A stretch of 59,931 nucleotides of DNA from Candidatus Pacearchaeota archaeon (GCA_027021195.1 JALUUW010000018.1:1-59931); one strand, 5' to 3'; positions 32,033 through 35,552 are shown, counted from the first letter of the stretch. Numbers and translations are program-made. Notes: a model not told the origin generated them from the sequence alone.

Positions 32033-32041
32033 TGCAAACAG
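32033..32041. repeat. Target-site duplication, left copy (TGCAAACAG)
   Basis: A perfect 9-mer also lies at 35544-35552. Each copy directly abuts a terminal inverted repeat. Confidence 0.75.
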
Positions 32042-32065
32042 TGTATTGTTGCATAAGCGGGAGTT
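32042..32065. repeat. Left terminal inverted repeat (TGTATTGTTGCATAAGCGGGAGTT)
   Basis: Matches the reverse complement of 35520-35543 (TGCATTGTTGCATTAAAGGGAGTT) at 20 of 24 positions. Confidence 0.75.
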
Positions 32066-32104
32066 TTCAGAAGATTTTTAAAAAGAAAATTCTAACCATA
32101 TAAT

Positions 32105-32638
32105 ATGGTAATGACTTATAAACCAAAGGGAAAACCAAGATTAACCGCAATCAAAGAAATAAGATTAGATGGAGTTACTATTGGGGTTTTTCCTGGGAGT
32201 AGAGGATATAACCCTGATCATGATATTTTAATAAAATATCAAGAAGATGGAAAAAGACTAAGAACTCCTAAACATATTCATTGGGTTATTGATATGTTGA
32301 TTAAAAAAGAGCATAACAGGGAGCTTTCTCTCAAATTCTTGAAATATTTAAGAGACATGTATGATAGAGTTCCTGGTTTTAGGAGCAAGGAAGAAAGAGA
32401 TAGATGTGAATTAAAAGAAACAACAAAAGAGAAACTTAAGTCATTTGAAGAATTAAATCAATACGGAGAATACTCTGTCGAATTCATAGGTCATCTAATT
32501 GAATTAATGATAAAAATGGAAAAGAATACTCCTGAGGATAATCCTGCAAGAGTTTTTAAGGAATTAATGGATGCGATGATAAATGAAGAAGAAATATTCG
32601 TAATAGTCTCTAAAGCTACACAGGTGGGCGGAAGGTAA
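32105..32638 (+). CDS. Hypothetical protein, candidate cognate restriction endonuclease (177 aa)
   Basis: Convergent with the methyltransferase gene, and their stop codons abut. There is no clear nuclease motif beyond a loose PDHD...QEDGK pattern. Confidence 0.4.
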   Translation: MVMTYKPKGKPRLTAIKEIRLDGVTIGVFPGSRGYNPDHDILIKYQEDGKRLRTPKHIHWVIDMLIKKEHNRELSLKFLKYLRDMYDRVPGFRSKEERDRCELKETTKEKLKSFEELNQYGEYSVEFIGHLIELMIKMEKNTPEDNPARVFKELMDAMINEEEIFVIVSKATQVGGR

Positions 32639-33448
32639 TTATTCTTTAAACTCTTCAAAAATTATCTCTGGCTCTTCGCCAGATAAGGTTTTTTGTCCTT
32701 TTTGCAATCTTTTTTTTATGATATCTATATATTTTTTATTTATTTCTATACCTATTGAATTACGCCCGTAATATTTAGCCACTGCTGAAGTGGTGCCAGA
32801 ACCAACAAATGGATCTAATACTAAATCTCCTTCATCTGTGCAAGAGAGAATTATCCTTTTTAATAATTCAAATGGCTTTTGCGTTGGATGAGCTCCAGCC
32901 CACTTTTCTTTTTTTGGAGTTAAAGGAATGCTCCAGACATTTCTTGTTTGCTTTCCTTTTGGATTAAGAGGATCTTCTATTTGCTTACTCCACTTATAAT
33001 TAAACTTCCATTTTTTACCATCCCCATTTTTAGAAGCCCAAATTAAGTGTTCTGTGCTTTCTGTAAAAAATCTGCAAGTTATATTCGGCTGTGCATTGGG
33101 TTTGAACCAAACTATACTATTATTTATCTTAACTTCCGGCATATTTTGCAAGATATAACCGATTTGATATATGTTATGAAAACTTCCAGAGACCCACAGG
33201 CTACCACCATGCTTCAAAACTCTAAGGCATTCAGAAATCCACTTTAAATTAAACTCAAAAAATTCATCCTTAGAGAATATATCCCAAGCTTCTTGCATTG
33301 TTATATGGTTGCTATATTTCCATCCCAAGCCTTTTTTCTTGGACATATTGTATGGGGGATCTGCAAATACTAAATCAACAGAGTTATCTGGAATTGTCTT
33401 TAAAACTTTCAAAGCGTCTCCTAAGATTATTTTATGGGTTGTTTTCAT
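32639..33448 (-). CDS. DNA methyltransferase, beta-class (N6-adenine or N4-cytosine)
   Basis: Motif IV FADPPYN is N-terminal to motif I DPFVGSGTT, the circular permutation typical of the beta class. Confidence 0.85.
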   Translation of the reverse strand: MKTTHKIILGDALKVLKTIPDNSVDLVFADPPYNMSKKKGLGWKYSNHITMQEAWDIFSKDEFFEFNLKWISECLRVLKHGGSLWVSGSFHNIYQIGYILQNMPEVKINNSIVWFKPNAQPNITCRFFTESTEHLIWASKNGDGKKWKFNYKWSKQIEDPLNPKGKQTRNVWSIPLTPKKEKWAGAHPTQKPFELLKRIILSCTDEGDLVLDPFVGSGTTSAVAKYYGRNSIGIEINKKYIDIIKKRLQKGQKTLSGEEPEIIFEEFKE

Positions 33449-33449
33449 G

Positions 33450-34016
33450 CTACCCTACTGCCCCCTTTAATTCCATTAAAATTGTTTTTATCTCAGATAT
33501 TTCTTTTTTAATACCAATAATCTCTTGGCTTAAGAACCCTCTTTTTTTTAATTCCTCTCTCTGCATCTGTATTAATTCTATCATTGCCCCCCATCTTTTT
33601 TCCTCAGCAACAGCAGAGCGTCTTTTTGCTTCAAGTTCTAATTCATTCGTTTGTTTCTCTAACTCATTGATAATTTTTGAATCTTTTTCTGAAGAAATAA
33701 TTAAACTCAGTTCCTCTTTAAATGCAAGAAGATGGTTTCTTATTCTTTTAAGATGTGAAATATAGTAATCTTGCTTTTCTTCTTCAGTATCTTCTTTACC
33801 AACAATAGCTATATAAAAAGGTCTTGCCTTTTTAAAATCACCTAGTTTTTTCTCATCATTTACAAAGGTAGCTCTAATAAAACTTTTTACTAAAGTAATT
33901 AACTCTTCTTTCTCATCAGATCCTTCTCTATAAGACTTCTTTAGAAGTTCATCAACTTTTTTTATATATTCTTCAACTTTTCTTAATGCCTCGTTTGGAT
34001 TTATTCCATGATTCAT
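33450..34016 (-). CDS. Hypothetical coiled-coil protein (188 aa)
   Basis: Its stop is 1 nt before the methyltransferase ATG, and its own ATG overlaps the upstream Zn-ribbon stop (ATGA). Confidence 0.5.
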   Translation of the reverse strand: MNHGINPNEALRKVEEYIKKVDELLKKSYREGSDEKEELITLVKSFIRATFVNDEKKLGDFKKARPFYIAIVGKEDTEEEKQDYYISHLKRIRNHLLAFKEELSLIISSEKDSKIINELEKQTNELELEAKRRSAVAEEKRWGAMIELIQMQREELKKRGFLSQEIIGIKKEISEIKTILMELKGAVG

Positions 34017-34165
34017 TTTCTCTTTTTATTGTTTTTACGAGGTTTATTCCAATAAGGTGATTTACACTTTGGGCATATTGTCGGTTTTTCTTTTTCTCTT
34101 GGGATCCACTGATGCCCACATCTATCACATTTGTATGCGGTTACTTCTATTTTAAATTCTGCCAT
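34013..34165 (-). CDS. Zn-ribbon protein (50 aa, MAEFKIEVTAYKCDRCGHQWIPREKEKPTICPKCKSPYWNKPRKNNKKRK)
   Basis: Hand-translated. CxxC...CxxC, and the ATGA overlap with the next gene indicates translational coupling. Confidence 0.5.
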   Translation of the reverse strand: MAEFKIEVTAYKCDRCGHQWIPREKEKPTICPKCKSPYWNKPRKNNKKRK

Positions 34166-34331
34166 AATAATATATTAATTCAATCCTTTATAAATTTACC
34201 TATTAGGTTATACCTTGTAACCAAAAGGTTTAAATAGATTAACCTACTCTATAGGTTATACCTAAAAGGTATTTATAGGTAGAGGGTGCGCGAACACCCT
34301 CATTAGACTCCATCAGCCCGTTAAAGCCAAA

Positions 34332-35270
34332 ATGAATTCCAAAAATAAAAAAGAGAAGAACTATAAAAAAGTATCTTGTCCTAAATGTGGTGGTAAAAAT
34401 ATTAAAAAAGATGGATTAAGAAAAACAGAATACAGGGGGAAGATACAAAGATATAGATGTAAGGAATGTAATTTTAGATTTGTTCTTGATGAAGGTTTTT
34501 ACAGAATGAGAAATCATGAAAAGAAGATAACTCTCTGTATGGATTTATATTACAAAGGAGTTTCATTTAGAAAATTACAAGAACATTTGCAAGCATTTTA
34601 TCCCAAAAACGCTCATTATTCTACAATCTATCGCTGGATAGTAAAATACTCAAAGATAATTAGTAAATTTACAGATAATTTGCAAATTAAATGCAAAAGA
34701 GAAATAATGAGTGATGAAATGGAATATTATAGAAGAATAAGCAAAAATCAAAAAGGTAGAGAACAAAATTGGTTTGTTGATACTTTTGATATTGAAACAA
34801 GATTTATGATAACAGGTGAATATATGAAAAGTAGAACAAATAAAAATTTGATAAAAGTTATGAAGAAAACTAAATTTAAGGTTGGTGAGCAAGTAGAGGT
34901 TGTAACAACAGATGGATTATTAGGTTACCTTAAAGTTTTAAGAAAAACATTTAGTTTACAATCGCCTTATCATGCTTCATCTAGAACAAAAAGCAAAATA
35001 GTTCATAATGTTGTTATTGCTTCTGAAAGAGGTTTTAATCATCCAATTGAGAGATTACATAATACAATAAGAAAAAGAACAAAAGTTATGCGGGGATTTC
35101 ATGGTAGTTTAGAGTCTGCATATGCTATCATGAAAGGATTAGAGATAAATTATAACTTTGTAAGAAAGAATTTAGCTTTAGGCGGCAAAACTCCTGCTGA
35201 AGTTGCAATACCGCAATTAAAACTAGGAGTTAATAAGTGGTTGGATTTAATTAAGTTGAGTAAGATCTAA
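34332..35270 (+). CDS. DDE transposase with an N-terminal Zn-ribbon (IS6-like; family assignment tentative)
   Basis: CPKCGG...CKECNF zinc ribbon. Candidate catalytic residues are in SDEMEY, TTDGLLGY and NHPIERLHNTIRKRTKVMRGF, resembling the IS6/IS26 C-terminal signature. Confidence 0.8.
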   Translation: MNSKNKKEKNYKKVSCPKCGGKNIKKDGLRKTEYRGKIQRYRCKECNFRFVLDEGFYRMRNHEKKITLCMDLYYKGVSFRKLQEHLQAFYPKNAHYSTIYRWIVKYSKIISKFTDNLQIKCKREIMSDEMEYYRRISKNQKGREQNWFVDTFDIETRFMITGEYMKSRTNKNLIKVMKKTKFKVGEQVEVVTTDGLLGYLKVLRKTFSLQSPYHASSRTKSKIVHNVVIASERGFNHPIERLHNTIRKRTKVMRGFHGSLESAYAIMKGLEINYNFVRKNLALGGKTPAEVAIPQLKLGVNKWLDLIKLSKI

Positions 35271-35479
35271 AAATCTTTTTTGATAACCTCGTTATCTTCT
35301 GCGTCTCTTAAATAGAGAATTTGTGCTCCACTGAGAGTCATATGGGCATGTTTACTTGAACCCTTTTGATATATGATGATATCGGTTAACCACGGTTCTT
35401 TATTGTAATTAATAATTTTGGCTGCATGAGGACGTTCAACTTTTTCTGTTTTTCTTGATTCTTTTTTATTCTTTCCCAT
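35267..35479 (-). CDS. Hypothetical protein (70 aa) at the right end of the transposon
   Basis: ATG ORF overlapping the transposase stop by 4 nt on the opposite strand. No motif recognised. Confidence 0.35.
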   Translation of the reverse strand: MGKNKKESRKTEKVERPHAAKIINYNKEPWLTDIIIYQKGSSKHAHMTLSGAQILYLRDAEDNEVIKKDF

Positions 35480-35519
35480 TATATGCTAATCACTCTTCTG
35501 CTTAAATATTTTACGATTT

Positions 35520-35543
35520 AACTCCCTTTAATGCAACAATGCA
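35520..35543. repeat. Right terminal inverted repeat (AACTCCCTTTAATGCAACAATGCA)
   Basis: See the left TIR. Confidence 0.75.
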
Positions 35544-35552
35544 TGCAAACAG
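35544..35552. repeat. Target-site duplication, right copy (TGCAAACAG)
   Basis: See the left copy. Confidence 0.75.

What the first reader, a model, noticed from the sequence alone, without database searches (positions are those of the whole stretch)
32033..35552. 3.5-kb cargo transposon with verified TSD and TIRs, carrying a DDE transposase and an R-M-like module
I read both flanks of the accessory block next to serS. On the left, TGCAAACAG (32033-32041) is followed directly by TGTATTGTTGCATAAGCGGGAGTT (32042-32065). On the right, AACTCCCTTTAATGCAACAATGCA (35520-35543, reverse complement TGCATTGTTGCATTAAAGGGAGTT) is followed directly by TGCAAACAG (35544-35552). That gives 20/24 matching terminal inverted repeats abutted by a perfect 9-bp direct repeat, which is the footprint of a single DDE transposition event.

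The 3502-bp element encodes one Zn-ribbon + DDE transposase, with candidate D128/D194/E240 by my count. It also carries five passenger ORFs:
- a beta-class DPPY DNA methyltransferase;
- a convergent, stop-to-stop abutting 177-aa ORF that could be the cognate endonuclease;
- a translationally coupled 50-aa Zn-ribbon;
- a 188-aa coiled-coil protein;
- a 70-aa ORF.

An R-M-like module riding inside a single-transposase element in a reduced archaeal genome is unusual. The 177-, 188- and 70-aa proteins have no motif I can place. The insertion lies about 35 bp upstream of the serS ATG, just outside its TATA box.
Basis: seen in the sequence. Interest (0 to 1): 0.75.

Follow-up and report, generated by a model that had tools for sequence, protein, structure and literature searches.

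The report
DPANN cargo transposon carrying methyltransferase module
A 3.5-kb jumping gene has recently landed between two housekeeping genes of a tiny (DPANN) archaeon; it belongs to a large family of archaeal transposons, not found described in the literature I could search, that always carry extra genes, here a DNA methyltransferase with a widely conserved partner protein whose predicted fold matches nothing solved.

Summary
A perfect 9-bp direct repeat (TGCAAACAG) abuts 24-bp inverted repeats (20/24) around a 3502-bp block. Among 4620 comparable 9-mer pairs in the window, the next best inverted repeat is 15/24.

The block is an insertion:
- In 41 relatives, serS and the membrane-protein gene are direct divergent neighbours (median gap 111 bp). 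The window minus the element gives 109 bp.
- Logan contigs from one metagenome break exactly k-1 = 30 nt outside both ends. This is what coexisting filled and empty alleles predict.

The element belongs to a DPANN-wide family. At least 32 bounded elements (1993-8521 bp) have a perfect 9-bp TSD and a shared TIR consensus. All contain a DDE transposase (invariant D128/D194/E240), and most a divergent ~50-aa zinc-ribbon gene, plus variable cargo. That cargo includes several restriction-modification types and tRNA synthetases.

A 2596-bp marine sibling with the same layout (178-aa protein, methyltransferase, zinc ribbon, transposase) sits at two sites with different TSDs. So the module moves as a unit.

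The 177-aa "endonuclease" candidate is consistently paired with DNA methyltransferases. Its confident model (pLDDT 95.6) matches no solved structure, so its nuclease role is unproven.

The transposase lies between the curated IS1 and IS6 families and meets neither threshold.

The parts
32033..32041 (.). Left copy of the 9-bp target-site duplication, TGCAAACAG
   Evidence: Only two copies exist in the window. All 32 bounded family elements also have perfect 9-bp TSDs.
32042..32065 (+). Left terminal inverted repeat (IRL), TGTATTGTTGCATAAGCGGGAGTT
   Evidence: Matches IRR at 20/24. Fits the family consensus T[GA]CATTGT..GT.A..GGGAGTT built from 64 ends.
32105..32638 (+). 177-aa cargo protein. 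Conserved methyltransferase-partner family of unknown fold; candidate restriction endonuclease or DNA-targeting effector.
   Evidence: 770 homologues at 72-92% identity and 223 clusters at 50% identity. In all 11 contexts retrieved via the 177-aa family it is convergent to and abutting a DNA MTase of N6_N4 or D12 class; 10 of these are contigs of one marine element at two sites. Fusions exist to a D12 MTase and to a TIR domain. AF2 model pLDDT 95.6 with no Foldseek match. No Pfam, NCBIfam, PHROG or PADLOC hit.
32639..33448 (-). 269-aa beta-class N6-adenine-type DNA methyltransferase (DPPY at residue 30, FVGSG at 214)
   Evidence: PF01555 209 bits. PADLOC MTase_II 276 bits. Closest solved structure is CcrM 6pbd at 185 bits.
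33450..34016 (-). 188-aa near-orphan cargo protein, between the zinc-ribbon gene and the MTase in one tightly packed operon
   Evidence: Only 3 homologues in 5.8 billion proteins. The order Zn-ribbon, p188, MTase is the same in L179. No family hit.
34013..34165 (-). 50-aa CxxC...CxxC zinc-ribbon protein with a basic tail. Core gene of the family, divergent from the transposase gene.
   Evidence: Cluster c1 is present in 19 of 32 elements, with similar-sized ORFs (47-65 aa, strand varying) in that region in most others. 56 tblastn hits in family loci. Its 4-nt overlap with the 188-aa ORF start suggests translational coupling.
34166..34331 (.). Divergent control region with two TATA-like boxes (34229-34237 and 34270-34278)
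   Evidence: The layout is conserved across 19 family members. Coordinates.
34282..34301 (+). GC-rich hairpin GAGGGTG-CGCGAA-CACCCTC, 30 nt upstream of the transposase ATG
   Evidence: At least 7 different self-complementary stems occur at the same position in relatives. Median MFE z-score is -3.3. No Rfam match.
34332..35270 (+). 312-aa transposase: N-terminal zinc ribbon (C16, C19, C43, C46), helical HTH region, DDE domain (D128, D194, E240, R247)
   Evidence: NCBIfam IS6 53.8 bits, IS1 39.9 bits, IS1/IS1595 zinc domain 29.3 bits against a cutoff of 28. Invariant residues. Foldseek ISCth4 at E 5e-7, then TnsB, MuA and IstA.
35267..35479 (-). 70-aa ORF convergent to and overlapping the transposase stop. 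Its status as a gene is uncertain.
   Evidence: Called as a gene in the Logan contig. No homologue in any fetched locus and no family hit.
35520..35543 (-). Right terminal inverted repeat (IRR); reverse complement TGCATTGTTGCATTAAAGGGAGTT
35544..35552 (.). Right copy of the 9-bp target-site duplication, TGCAAACAG
   Evidence: Logan contig L002 starts exactly here.

Best explanation
Window 32042-35543 is an intact, recently inserted unit transposon (a 'transporter IS') of a DPANN-archaeal family whose transposase lies between the IS1 and IS6 families.

Shown:
- It is bounded by family-typical 24-bp TIRs and a 9-bp TSD.
- It sits in the otherwise ~110-bp divergent promoter region between serS and a membrane-protein gene.
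- Elements with this gene layout occupy different sites with different TSDs, so the whole TIR-to-TIR unit moves, cargo included.

Inferred mechanism:
- The zinc-ribbon/HTH/DDE transposase binds the TIRs.
- It joins the 3' ends to target phosphates staggered by 9 bp, and repair yields the TSD.
- Whether the donor is cut out, copied out or passes through a cointegrate is not known.
- The divergent 50-aa zinc-ribbon protein and the conserved leader hairpin are probably transposition regulators.

Cargo:
- It is a tight operon (zinc ribbon, 188 aa, beta-class m6A-type methyltransferase) with a convergent 177-aa partner.
- The most likely role is a compact restriction-modification-like or addiction/defence module. 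The methyltransferase would protect host DNA and the 177-aa protein would be the DNA-targeting partner.
- This step is inference. The partner's fold matches no known nuclease.
For: TIR and TSD significance.

Insertion:
- 41 relatives have serS and mem226 as direct divergent neighbours, median gap 111 bp, against 109 bp in the window after removing the element plus one TSD copy. None has element genes there.
- Logan contig L001 equals the element plus exactly 30 nt on each side. L002 starts at TSD-R and overlaps L001 by 30 nt.
- Logan uses k = 31 and reports only contigs longer than 150 bp. These are the breaks expected if empty and filled alleles coexist.

Family:
- 994 transposase homologues; every hit that carries a source name, and all 76 GTDB genome loci, are DPANN.
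- 32 elements with a perfect 9-bp TSD and a shared TIR consensus, 1993-8521 bp, plus 4 with 8/9 TSDs.

Unit mobility:
- A marine 2596-bp sibling (178 aa, MTase, zinc ribbon, tnp) sits at two sites with TSDs CTTTTTACA and TGGTTAAAA.
- L180 has the same left end, with a 92%-identical 177-aa gene, at another flank.

DDE.

R-M-like reading:
- MTase.
- In all 11 contexts retrieved via the 177-aa family, it is convergent to and abutting an MTase of one of two classes.
- Fusions to an MTase and to a TIR domain.
- Bona fide R-M cargo in sibling elements.
Against: - No read-level or contig-level sequence of the empty allele was obtained. The exact junction is absent from JGI metagenomes, and the empty-allele inference rests on assembly-graph breakpoints.
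- Only one copy is present in the 60-kb window.
- The 177-aa protein has no nuclease motif or fold match.
- It is far more conserved (72-92% identity) than typical restriction enzymes.
- An 85%-identical MTase rides in L033 without it.
- A 177-aa homologue in L039 has no MTase in the available flank.
- GANTC, the motif suggested by CcrM similarity, is not depleted in the window (O/E 0.91).
Confidence: 0.85

Rival explanations
1. The transposon reading is right, but the cargo is not a restriction-modification system. The methyltransferase would be a mobile orphan or epigenetic enzyme. The 177-aa protein would be a non-nuclease partner, for example a DNA-binding reader, a regulator, or the sensor domain of another defence type.
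For: - The confident model has no similarity to any solved nuclease.
- There are no consistent Pfam or PADLOC hits over 50 divergent members.
- Conservation is unusually high for a restriction enzyme.
- The domain is fused to a TIR effector in P0354, as sensor domains often are.
- The MTase occurs without it in L033.
Against: - The arrangement is convergent and stop-to-stop with DNA MTases of two unrelated classes.
- It is fused to a D12 MTase in P0243.
- Invariant acidic, basic and His residues (D40, H57, D63, K67, E139) would suit a metal-dependent active site.
- Other elements of the family carry bona fide restriction endonucleases as cargo (HNH, MvaI/BcnI).
Confidence: 0.4
2. The block is a composite. 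A simple ~1.3-kb IS (zinc ribbon plus transposase) sits next to a fixed genomic island, and the left TIR is a solo remnant of another copy. The cargo would then not move with the transposase.
For: All cargo except the 70-aa ORF lies on one side of the zinc-ribbon/transposase core. A weak TIR-like sequence lies inside the transposase 3' end at 35189-35212.
Against: - There is no TIR copy between 32066 and 35188.
- The 9-bp TSD flanks the outer ends.
- No family member among 32 is a bare IS; the smallest is 1993 bp.
- The same layout sits at two sites with different TSDs.
- L180 has the TIR directly upstream of the 177-aa gene at a different flank.
- Relatives have no island between serS and mem226.
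Confidence: 0.03
3. The TIR and TSD are chance matches, and the block is an ordinary strain-variable island acquired by another route such as an integrase or homologous recombination.
For: None beyond the AT-rich composition of the region.
Against: - The null distribution tops out at 15/24 against 20/24 observed, and shuffles give 0 matches.
- The same TIR consensus and 9-bp TSD recur in more than 30 independent elements.
- No integrase or tRNA target is present.
Confidence: 0.01

Closest known systems
IS6/IS26 family, especially the zinc-finger Clostridial clade and the archaeal 'IS6-like' clades
   Same: - Single-ORF DDE transposase with a basic residue at E+7.
- It is the best NCBIfam hit (NF033587, E 1.9e-14, whole profile covered).
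- Pfam DDE_Tnp_IS240 is a weak hit.
- tblastn hits annotated IS6 transposases of Clostridium at 24% identity over 89% of the protein.
- Archaeal members have TIRs longer than 14 bp that often do not start with GG (PMC6807381).
- The TIR core GCATTGTTGCA resembles the IS26 end GGCACTGTTGCAAA. That comparison is from memory and was not verified here.
   Different: - It scores far below the curated cutoff (53.8 against 125 bits).
- The TSD is 9 bp, not 8 bp, and the TIRs are 24 bp, not 14 bp (PMC7986276).
- IS6 moves cargo as pseudo-compound transposons between two IS copies, and only one IS6 member (ISDsp3) is a tIS.
- Here every element is a single-transposase unit with internal cargo.
- It has an extra conserved divergent zinc-ribbon gene.
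IS1 family (single-ORF and archaeal subgroups; the ISMhu11 subgroup with passenger genes, recalled from ISfinder)
   Same: - An IS1/IS1595-type N-terminal zinc-binding domain passes its curated cutoff (29.3 against 28 bits).
- NF033558 gives E 4e-10.
- NCBI names some homologues 'IS1 family transposase'.
- tblastn hits cyanobacterial IS1 transposases at 26.7% identity over 85%.
- The 9-bp TSD is typical of IS1 (from memory).
   Different: - It scores below the IS1 cutoff (39.9 against 100 bits).
- There is no InsA/InsB frameshift arrangement.
- The ends are T[GA]CATTGT rather than GGnnnTG (from memory).
- 'ISMhu11' could not be checked: the term gives zero hits in the paper library and ISfinder was not available.
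IS256 / Mutator-like transposases (ISCth4, PDB 6XG8, 6XGX, 6XGW)
   Same: Closest solved structure to the transposase model (E 5e-7, probability 1.0). Pfam Transposase_mut scores 21.4 bits, just at its cutoff of 21.
   Different: Only 11-18% identity and TM 0.37-0.50. NCBIfam IS256 gives 33 bits against a cutoff of 150, and only over the N-terminal helical region.
Transporter IS (tIS) and unit transposons carrying passenger genes; mobile restriction-modification units
   Same: One transposase, passenger genes inside the TIRs, and a TSD. R-M genes act as selfish, stabilising cargo; that concept comes from the bacterial literature and is cited from memory.
   Different: - The hosts are DPANN archaea.
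- Krupovic et al. 2019 state that passenger-carrying DNA transposons had not been detected in archaea (PMC6563490).
- Here cargo carriage is universal in the family, and cargo includes housekeeping-type genes such as Tyr/Trp-type aaRS.
CcrM/HinfI-type beta-class N6-adenine methyltransferases
   Same: PF01555 over its full length. The CcrM NCBIfam model scores 235 bits. CcrM 6pbd is the best solved match at 185 bits. DPPY precedes FxGxG.
   Different: It falls below the CcrM equivalog cutoff of 830 and lacks the CcrM C-terminal domain. Its specificity is unknown. GANTC is not depleted in the window, whereas GATC is (O/E 0.36).

Membership tests
DDE (RNase-H-fold) transposase superfamily | Catalytic D, D, E triad on an RNase-H-like fold | tested here: met
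   D128, D194 and E240 are invariant in 30 and in 40 aligned family members. The AF2 model (pLDDT 72.7) hits ISCth4, TnsB, MuA, RSV integrase and IstA, best E 5e-7.
IS6 family | Transposase reaches the curated family model threshold (NCBIfam NF033587, 125 bits) | tested here: not met
   53.8 bits, E 1.9e-14, covering the full profile.
IS6 family | 8-bp target-site duplication | tested here: not met
   The TSD is 9 bp in the window and in all 32 bounded relatives. The 8-bp figure for IS6 is from PMC7986276.
IS6 family | Short (~14-bp) TIRs beginning with GG | tested here: not met
   The TIRs are 24 bp and begin T[GA]C. The archaeal 'IS6' TIRs are also longer and often lack GG (PMC6807381).
IS6 family | Basic residue (K/R) seven residues after the catalytic E | tested here: met
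   R247 is invariant at E240+7.
IS1 family | Transposase reaches the curated family model threshold (NCBIfam NF033558, 100 bits) | tested here: not met
   39.9 bits, E 4.3e-10.
IS1 family | IS1/IS1595-type N-terminal zinc-binding domain | tested here: met
   NF050000 scores 29.3 bits against a cutoff of 28. C16, C19, C43 and C46 are invariant.
IS1 family | Classification by ISfinder criteria (BLAST/MCL against curated ISs; ends GGnnnTG) | not testable with these tools
   ISfinder was not available. The observed ends do not start with GG.
Transporter IS / unit transposon | A single transposase plus passenger genes between one pair of TIRs, flanked by a TSD, moving as one unit | tested here: met
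   Window anatomy. A sibling with the same layout sits at two sites with different TSDs. 32 bounded elements with variable cargo.
Type II restriction-modification system | DNA methyltransferase with catalytic and AdoMet-binding motifs | tested here: met
   PF01555 209 bits. DPPY and FVGSG are present.
Type II restriction-modification system | Adjacent endonuclease with a recognisable nuclease fold or motif (PD-(D/E)XK, HNH, GIY-YIG, PLD and others) | tested here: not met
   No sequence-family hit. The pLDDT-95.6 model has no Foldseek match in the PDB or BFVD.
Type II restriction-modification system | Endonuclease activity blocked by the cognate methylation | not testable with these tools
   This needs biochemistry or genetics. 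Only gene-neighbourhood evidence is available.

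The most novel reading that the evidence does not exclude
Two linked claims are not excluded.

1. This is the first recognised large family of cargo-carrying DDE unit transposons in archaea. It would be a major vehicle moving defence, metabolic and even aminoacyl-tRNA-synthetase genes between the reduced genomes of DPANN archaea, with its own accessory zinc-ribbon protein and a covarying leader hairpin.

2. The 177-aa methyltransferase partner it spreads (770+ members, 223 clusters at 50% identity) is a restriction endonuclease or DNA-targeting effector with a previously unseen fold.
Probability: 0.35. Interest if true: 0.8.

Novelty: new variant of a known kind. Interest (0 to 1): 0.62.

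Why it matters
DPANN archaea have very small genomes and are thought to depend heavily on gene exchange, yet their mobile elements are poorly charted. A 2019 survey stated that passenger-carrying DNA transposons had not been detected in archaea (PMC6563490).

This locus is a clean, recently active example of a family that always carries cargo. It has defined ends (24-bp TIR consensus, 9-bp TSD), which makes the elements easy to find and their cargo easy to catalogue.

The cargo includes restriction-modification systems of several types and Tyr/Trp-type tRNA synthetases. The family therefore bears on how defence and even housekeeping functions spread among symbiotic archaea.

The 177-aa partner is abundant, consistently linked to methyltransferases, and confidently predicted to have a fold with no solved relative. 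That makes it a concrete target for discovering a new DNA-targeting enzyme or reader.

Tried and rejected
- Exact-protein look-up of SerS to fetch an empty-site contig: not on record.
- Exact empty-junction pattern in JGI metagenomes: 0 hits. The predicted 51-nt junction unitig is below Logan's 150-bp reporting limit.
- SerS relatives are only 67-76% identical. They give synteny-level, not sequence-level, empty sites.
- The 177-aa family against PDB sequences, the PDB and BFVD by fold, Pfam and PADLOC over 50 members, and IMG/VR viral contigs: nothing.
- Transposase against PDB by sequence: nothing useful.
- The viral-classified contig L181 carries a 50%-identical transposase but has no recognisable TIR or TSD.
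- RNAalifold on a MAFFT alignment of the leader hairpin returned no structure because the stem arms were misaligned. It was replaced by a per-sequence hairpin analysis, whose 'observed 100% paired' is by construction. Only the shuffled-partner contrast (mean 0.50, maximum 0.67) and the MFE z-scores are informative.
- Literature search for 'ISMhu11': 0 hits. No paper describing this DPANN family was found.
- Motif depletion cannot assign the system's specificity. GATC is depleted (0.36) but GANTC is not (0.91), and the insertion is recent anyway.
- The composite-IS idea was rejected because there is no internal TIR.

Full report
**1. Observation**

- TGCAAACAG occurs only twice in the window, at 32033-32041 and 35544-35552.
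- It directly abuts TGTATTGTTGCATAAGCGGGAGTT (32042-32065) and the reverse complement of TGCATTGTTGCATTAAAGGGAGTT (35520-35543).
- The two arms match at 20/24, and they enclose 3502 bp.

This is not chance.
- Among all 4620 exact 9-mer direct-repeat pairs 700-6000 bp apart in the window, the abutting 24-mers match as inverted repeats at 15/24 at most. This pair reaches 20/24.
- A degenerate TIR pattern with up to three mismatches finds only these two sites, and none in 100 dinucleotide shuffles.

The six ORFs are as stated.
- The 177-aa ORF and the methyltransferase abut stop-to-stop.
- The zinc-ribbon ORF overlaps the 188-aa ORF by 4 nt.
- The 188-aa ORF ends 1 nt before the methyltransferase start.

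**2. It is an insertion**

*Comparative evidence.* SerS relatives from metagenomes (67-76% identity) include 41 loci where the homologue of the 226-aa membrane protein lies divergently upstream of serS.
- The median gap is 111 bp, and 29 of 41 gaps are 200 bp or less.
- None of them carries any element gene there.
- In the window the gap is 3620 bp. Subtracting 3502 and 9 leaves 109 bp.

*Population evidence.* The exact transposase protein is on a 3562-bp Logan contig from SRR8439019.
- That contig equals window 32012-35573 at 100% identity, which is the element plus exactly 30 nt on each side.
- The neighbouring Logan contig starts exactly at the right TSD and shares only that 30-mer with it.
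- Logan graphs use k = 31, and contigs of 150 bp or less are not reported (PMC12424806).
- A branch at the 30-mers made of 21 nt of flank plus the 9-bp TSD, on both sides, is what an empty allele with a single TSD copy predicts.
- A multi-copy repeat would instead break the graph at the element ends themselves.
- The predicted 51-nt empty-junction unitig is too short to be reported. This step is therefore an inference.
- A direct search for the junction in JGI metagenomes found nothing.

**3. The family**

The transposase has 994 homologues at E of 1e-3 or better. Every hit that carries a source name is from a DPANN archaeon, namely Nanoarchaeota, Woesearchaeota, Pacearchaeota or AR20; most hits are unnamed. 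A scan of GTDB species representatives returned 76 loci, all DPANN.

I searched for exact 9-mer repeats abutting inverted repeats of 16/24 or better around each full-length copy, without assuming any TIR sequence.
- This recovered elements in about 30 of 50 such loci, and I added L005 and the window.
- A motif scan found four more elements with 8/9 TSDs.

The 32 perfectly bounded elements share these features:
- They are 1993-8521 bp long (median 3892 bp). None is a bare IS.
- The 64 ends give the consensus T[GA]CATTGT[TA][AG][CA]GT[T]A[AG][CA]GGGAGTT. Positions 4-8, 13, 18 and 19 are invariant.
- TSDs are always 9 bp. The only composition signal noted is G at position 9 (18 of 32).

Several genomes hold two or more family members in the fetched loci, and those that are bounded carry different cargo.

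The conserved core is the transposase plus a divergent 47-52-aa zinc-ribbon ORF (cluster c1 in 19 elements, with ORFs of 47-65 aa, on either strand, in that region in most of the others). Everything else varies.

**4. Unit mobility of this particular layout**

A marine Pacearchaeota element has the layout 178-aa protein, then 266-aa N6_N4 methyltransferase, 50-aa zinc ribbon and 298-aa transposase.
- It is 2596 bp long with 20/24 TIRs.
- It occurs at two different sites with different perfect 9-bp TSDs. CTTTTTACA flanks it in L091 and L092; TGGTTAAAA flanks it in L093, L095 and L096.

L180 carries a 92%-identical 177-aa gene with the TIR in the same position upstream, but with different flanking genes.

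The window element is this same design plus the 188-aa gene and the 70-aa ORF. These results reject the idea of a simple IS lying next to a fixed island. There is also no internal TIR.

**5. The transposase**

- C16, C19, C43, C46, D128 (with E129), D194, E240 and R247 (E+7) are invariant in 30 element-borne copies at 48-81% identity, and in 40 database homologues.
- The AF2 model (pLDDT 72.7) matches only RNase-H-fold transposases and integrases. The best is ISCth4 of the IS256 family (E 5e-7), followed by TnsB, MuA, RSV integrase and IstA.
- Curated models place it between families. IS6 scores 53.8 bits against a cutoff of 125. IS1 scores 39.9 against 100. The IS1/IS1595 zinc domain scores 29.3 against 28, which passes.
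- Against annotated plasmids, the nearest hits are 24-28% identical. They are split between 'IS1 transposase' in cyanobacteria and 'IS6 family transposase' in the zinc-finger Clostridium clade.
- IS6 elements have 14-bp TIRs and 8-bp repeats, and only one known member carries a passenger (PMC7986276).
- The archaeal 'IS6' members are themselves argued to be a separate group with longer TIRs (PMC6807381).
- I therefore do not file this element under either family. It works like an IS1/IS6-type DDE element.

**6. The cargo**

*Methyltransferase.* It is a beta-class N6_N4 enzyme (209 bits). DPPY at residue 30 precedes FVGSG at residue 214. Among solved structures it is closest to CcrM (185 bits).

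*177-aa protein: distribution and context.*
- The family is strikingly conserved: 770 proteins at 72-92% identity and 223 clusters at 50% identity.
- The named hits and retrieved contexts are cellular (mostly DPANN), and the family is absent from IMG/VR viral contigs.
- In all 11 contexts retrieved via the 177-aa family it is convergent to and abutting a DNA methyltransferase. The partner is N6_N4 class in L090 and L091-L098 and D12 class in L089. L091-L098 are contigs of one marine element at two sites.
- One relative is fused to a D12 methyltransferase and another to a TIR domain.

*177-aa protein: structure and similarity.*
- G31, D40, H57, W60, D63, K67 and E139 are conserved.
- The model is very confident (pLDDT 95.6, pTM 0.90): three strands followed by seven helices.
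- It has no significant match in the PDB or BFVD (best E 0.3-0.5).
- No Pfam, NCBIfam, PHROG or PADLOC model matches it consistently.

*Reading.* The neighbourhood evidence makes a restriction-like partner the best guess.
- Sibling elements carry undoubted R-M cargo. Examples are a type IIG fusion as the sole cargo of L053, a type I R subunit in L014, MvaI/BcnI endonucleases, and an HNH gene beside the methyltransferase in L032.
- The nuclease claim itself is untested, and several facts weaken it. An 85%-identical methyltransferase rides without the 177-aa protein in L033. A 177-aa homologue in L039 has no methyltransferase in the available flank.

*Other cargo ORFs.* The 188-aa protein is a near-orphan with three homologues, one of them in the same zinc ribbon, p188, MTase order in L179. 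The 70-aa ORF has no detectable relatives.

**7. Mechanism**

*Shown:*
- defined ends;
- a 9-bp staggered-joining footprint;
- whole-unit mobility;
- an insertion between two divergent promoters that leaves both TATA regions in place.

*Inferred:*
- The transposase binds the TIRs through its zinc ribbon and HTH region and performs DDE strand transfer.
- The small zinc-ribbon protein with a basic tail is an accessory factor or regulator.
- The covarying GC hairpin, 30 nt upstream of the transposase ATG in the window (17-30 nt across the family), is also regulatory. At least seven different self-complementary stems occur, and the median MFE z-score is -3.3. No Rfam family matches it.
- The methyltransferase module may stabilise the element in an addiction-like way and add defence.

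*Unknown:* whether transposition is cut-and-paste, copy-out or via a cointegrate.

**8. Novelty**

Cargo-bearing ISs (tIS) and mobile R-M units are known kinds, so this is not categorically new. Four features are unusual:
- the host group;
- the fact that every family member carries cargo;
- the accessory zinc-ribbon gene and the leader hairpin;
- the 177-aa partner family.

No paper in the searchable library describes the family. A 2019 survey stated that passenger-carrying DNA transposons had not been detected in archaea (PMC6563490). From memory, ISfinder lists an archaeal IS1 subgroup (ISMhu11) of up to ~4.6 kb with passenger genes. That could be related, and I could not check it.

Noticed in passing
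window 34282-34301 (and the equivalent position in L005, L013, L016, L017, L023, L025, L030, L034, L038, L040, L054, L055, L063, L066): A GC-rich hairpin lies 17-30 nt upstream of the transposase ATG. Its stem sequence differs between elements but stays complementary, for example GAGGGTG/CACCCTC, GGGACTC/GAGTCCC, GGGGAGC/GCTCCCC and GAGAGCTC/GAGCTCTC. It is usually followed by AGATTCCA. It looks like a conserved leader structure regulating the transposase, and no Rfam family matches it.
   Followed up: partly
window 35189-35212 (inside the transposase 3' coding region); same relative position in L012/L016: A TIR-like sequence (reverse complement GGTATTGCAACTTCAGCAGGAGTT) matches IRL at 17/24. 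It overlaps the codons of the conserved KTPAEVAIP motif. L012/L016 has a 16/24 match at the equivalent place. It could be a coincidence of coding constraint or an internal transposase-binding site.
   Followed up: no
whole window (1-59931): GATC is strongly depleted (66 sites, O/E 0.36), as is CTAG (0.36). GANTC is not depleted (0.91). The element itself is about 1.8 times richer in GATC than the window average (7 sites in 3.5 kb). This suggests long-term GATC-directed restriction pressure on the host lineage and a foreign origin for the element.
   Followed up: partly
L028 14739-17009 and L067 (elements of 7487 and 8445 bp): Family elements carry two class-I Tyr/Trp-type aminoacyl-tRNA synthetase genes each as cargo (PF00579, up to 245 bits, one with the TyrRS S4 and C-terminal domains). 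These are housekeeping-type genes riding inside transposons in reduced genomes.
   Followed up: partly
L091 787-819, L092 61-93 and the identical flank in L097: One insertion of the 2596-bp marine element lies directly against the right end of another family element (...AGCTCCCTTTAATGCAACAATGTA, then the TSD CTTTTTACA). This hints at nesting next to, or a target preference for, the ends of related elements.
   Followed up: no
L101 (gap 1872-7000), and also L123, L125, L176, L160, L109: In some relatives the serS / membrane-protein intergenic region holds other insertions of 0.4-5.1 kb without TIRs of this family. This divergent promoter region may be a recurrent landing site for foreign DNA.
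   Followed up: no
P0354 (388 aa) and P0243 (462 aa), relatives of window 32105-32638: The 177-aa domain occurs fused to a TIR_2 domain (P0354) and to a D12-class DNA methyltransferase (P0243). Several ~335-aa relatives carry an uncharacterised N-terminal extension of ~190 aa.
   Followed up: partly
L003 (window 29854-30802) and L002 (window 35544-42299): The Logan assembly of SRR8439019 also breaks inside the 3' part of serS (at 30802). L002 differs from the window by 4 SNPs in 6.7 kb. So closely related strains coexist in that sample.
   Followed up: no
L179 (Logan SRR22388321, 2281 bp): The operon of zinc ribbon (93%), 188-aa protein (80%) and methyltransferase (77%) sits about 100 bp from a gatB-like host gene. 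No transposase or TIR is present in the contig. The zinc-ribbon-led methyltransferase operon may therefore also exist detached from the transposase, or the contig may simply be too short.
   Followed up: partly
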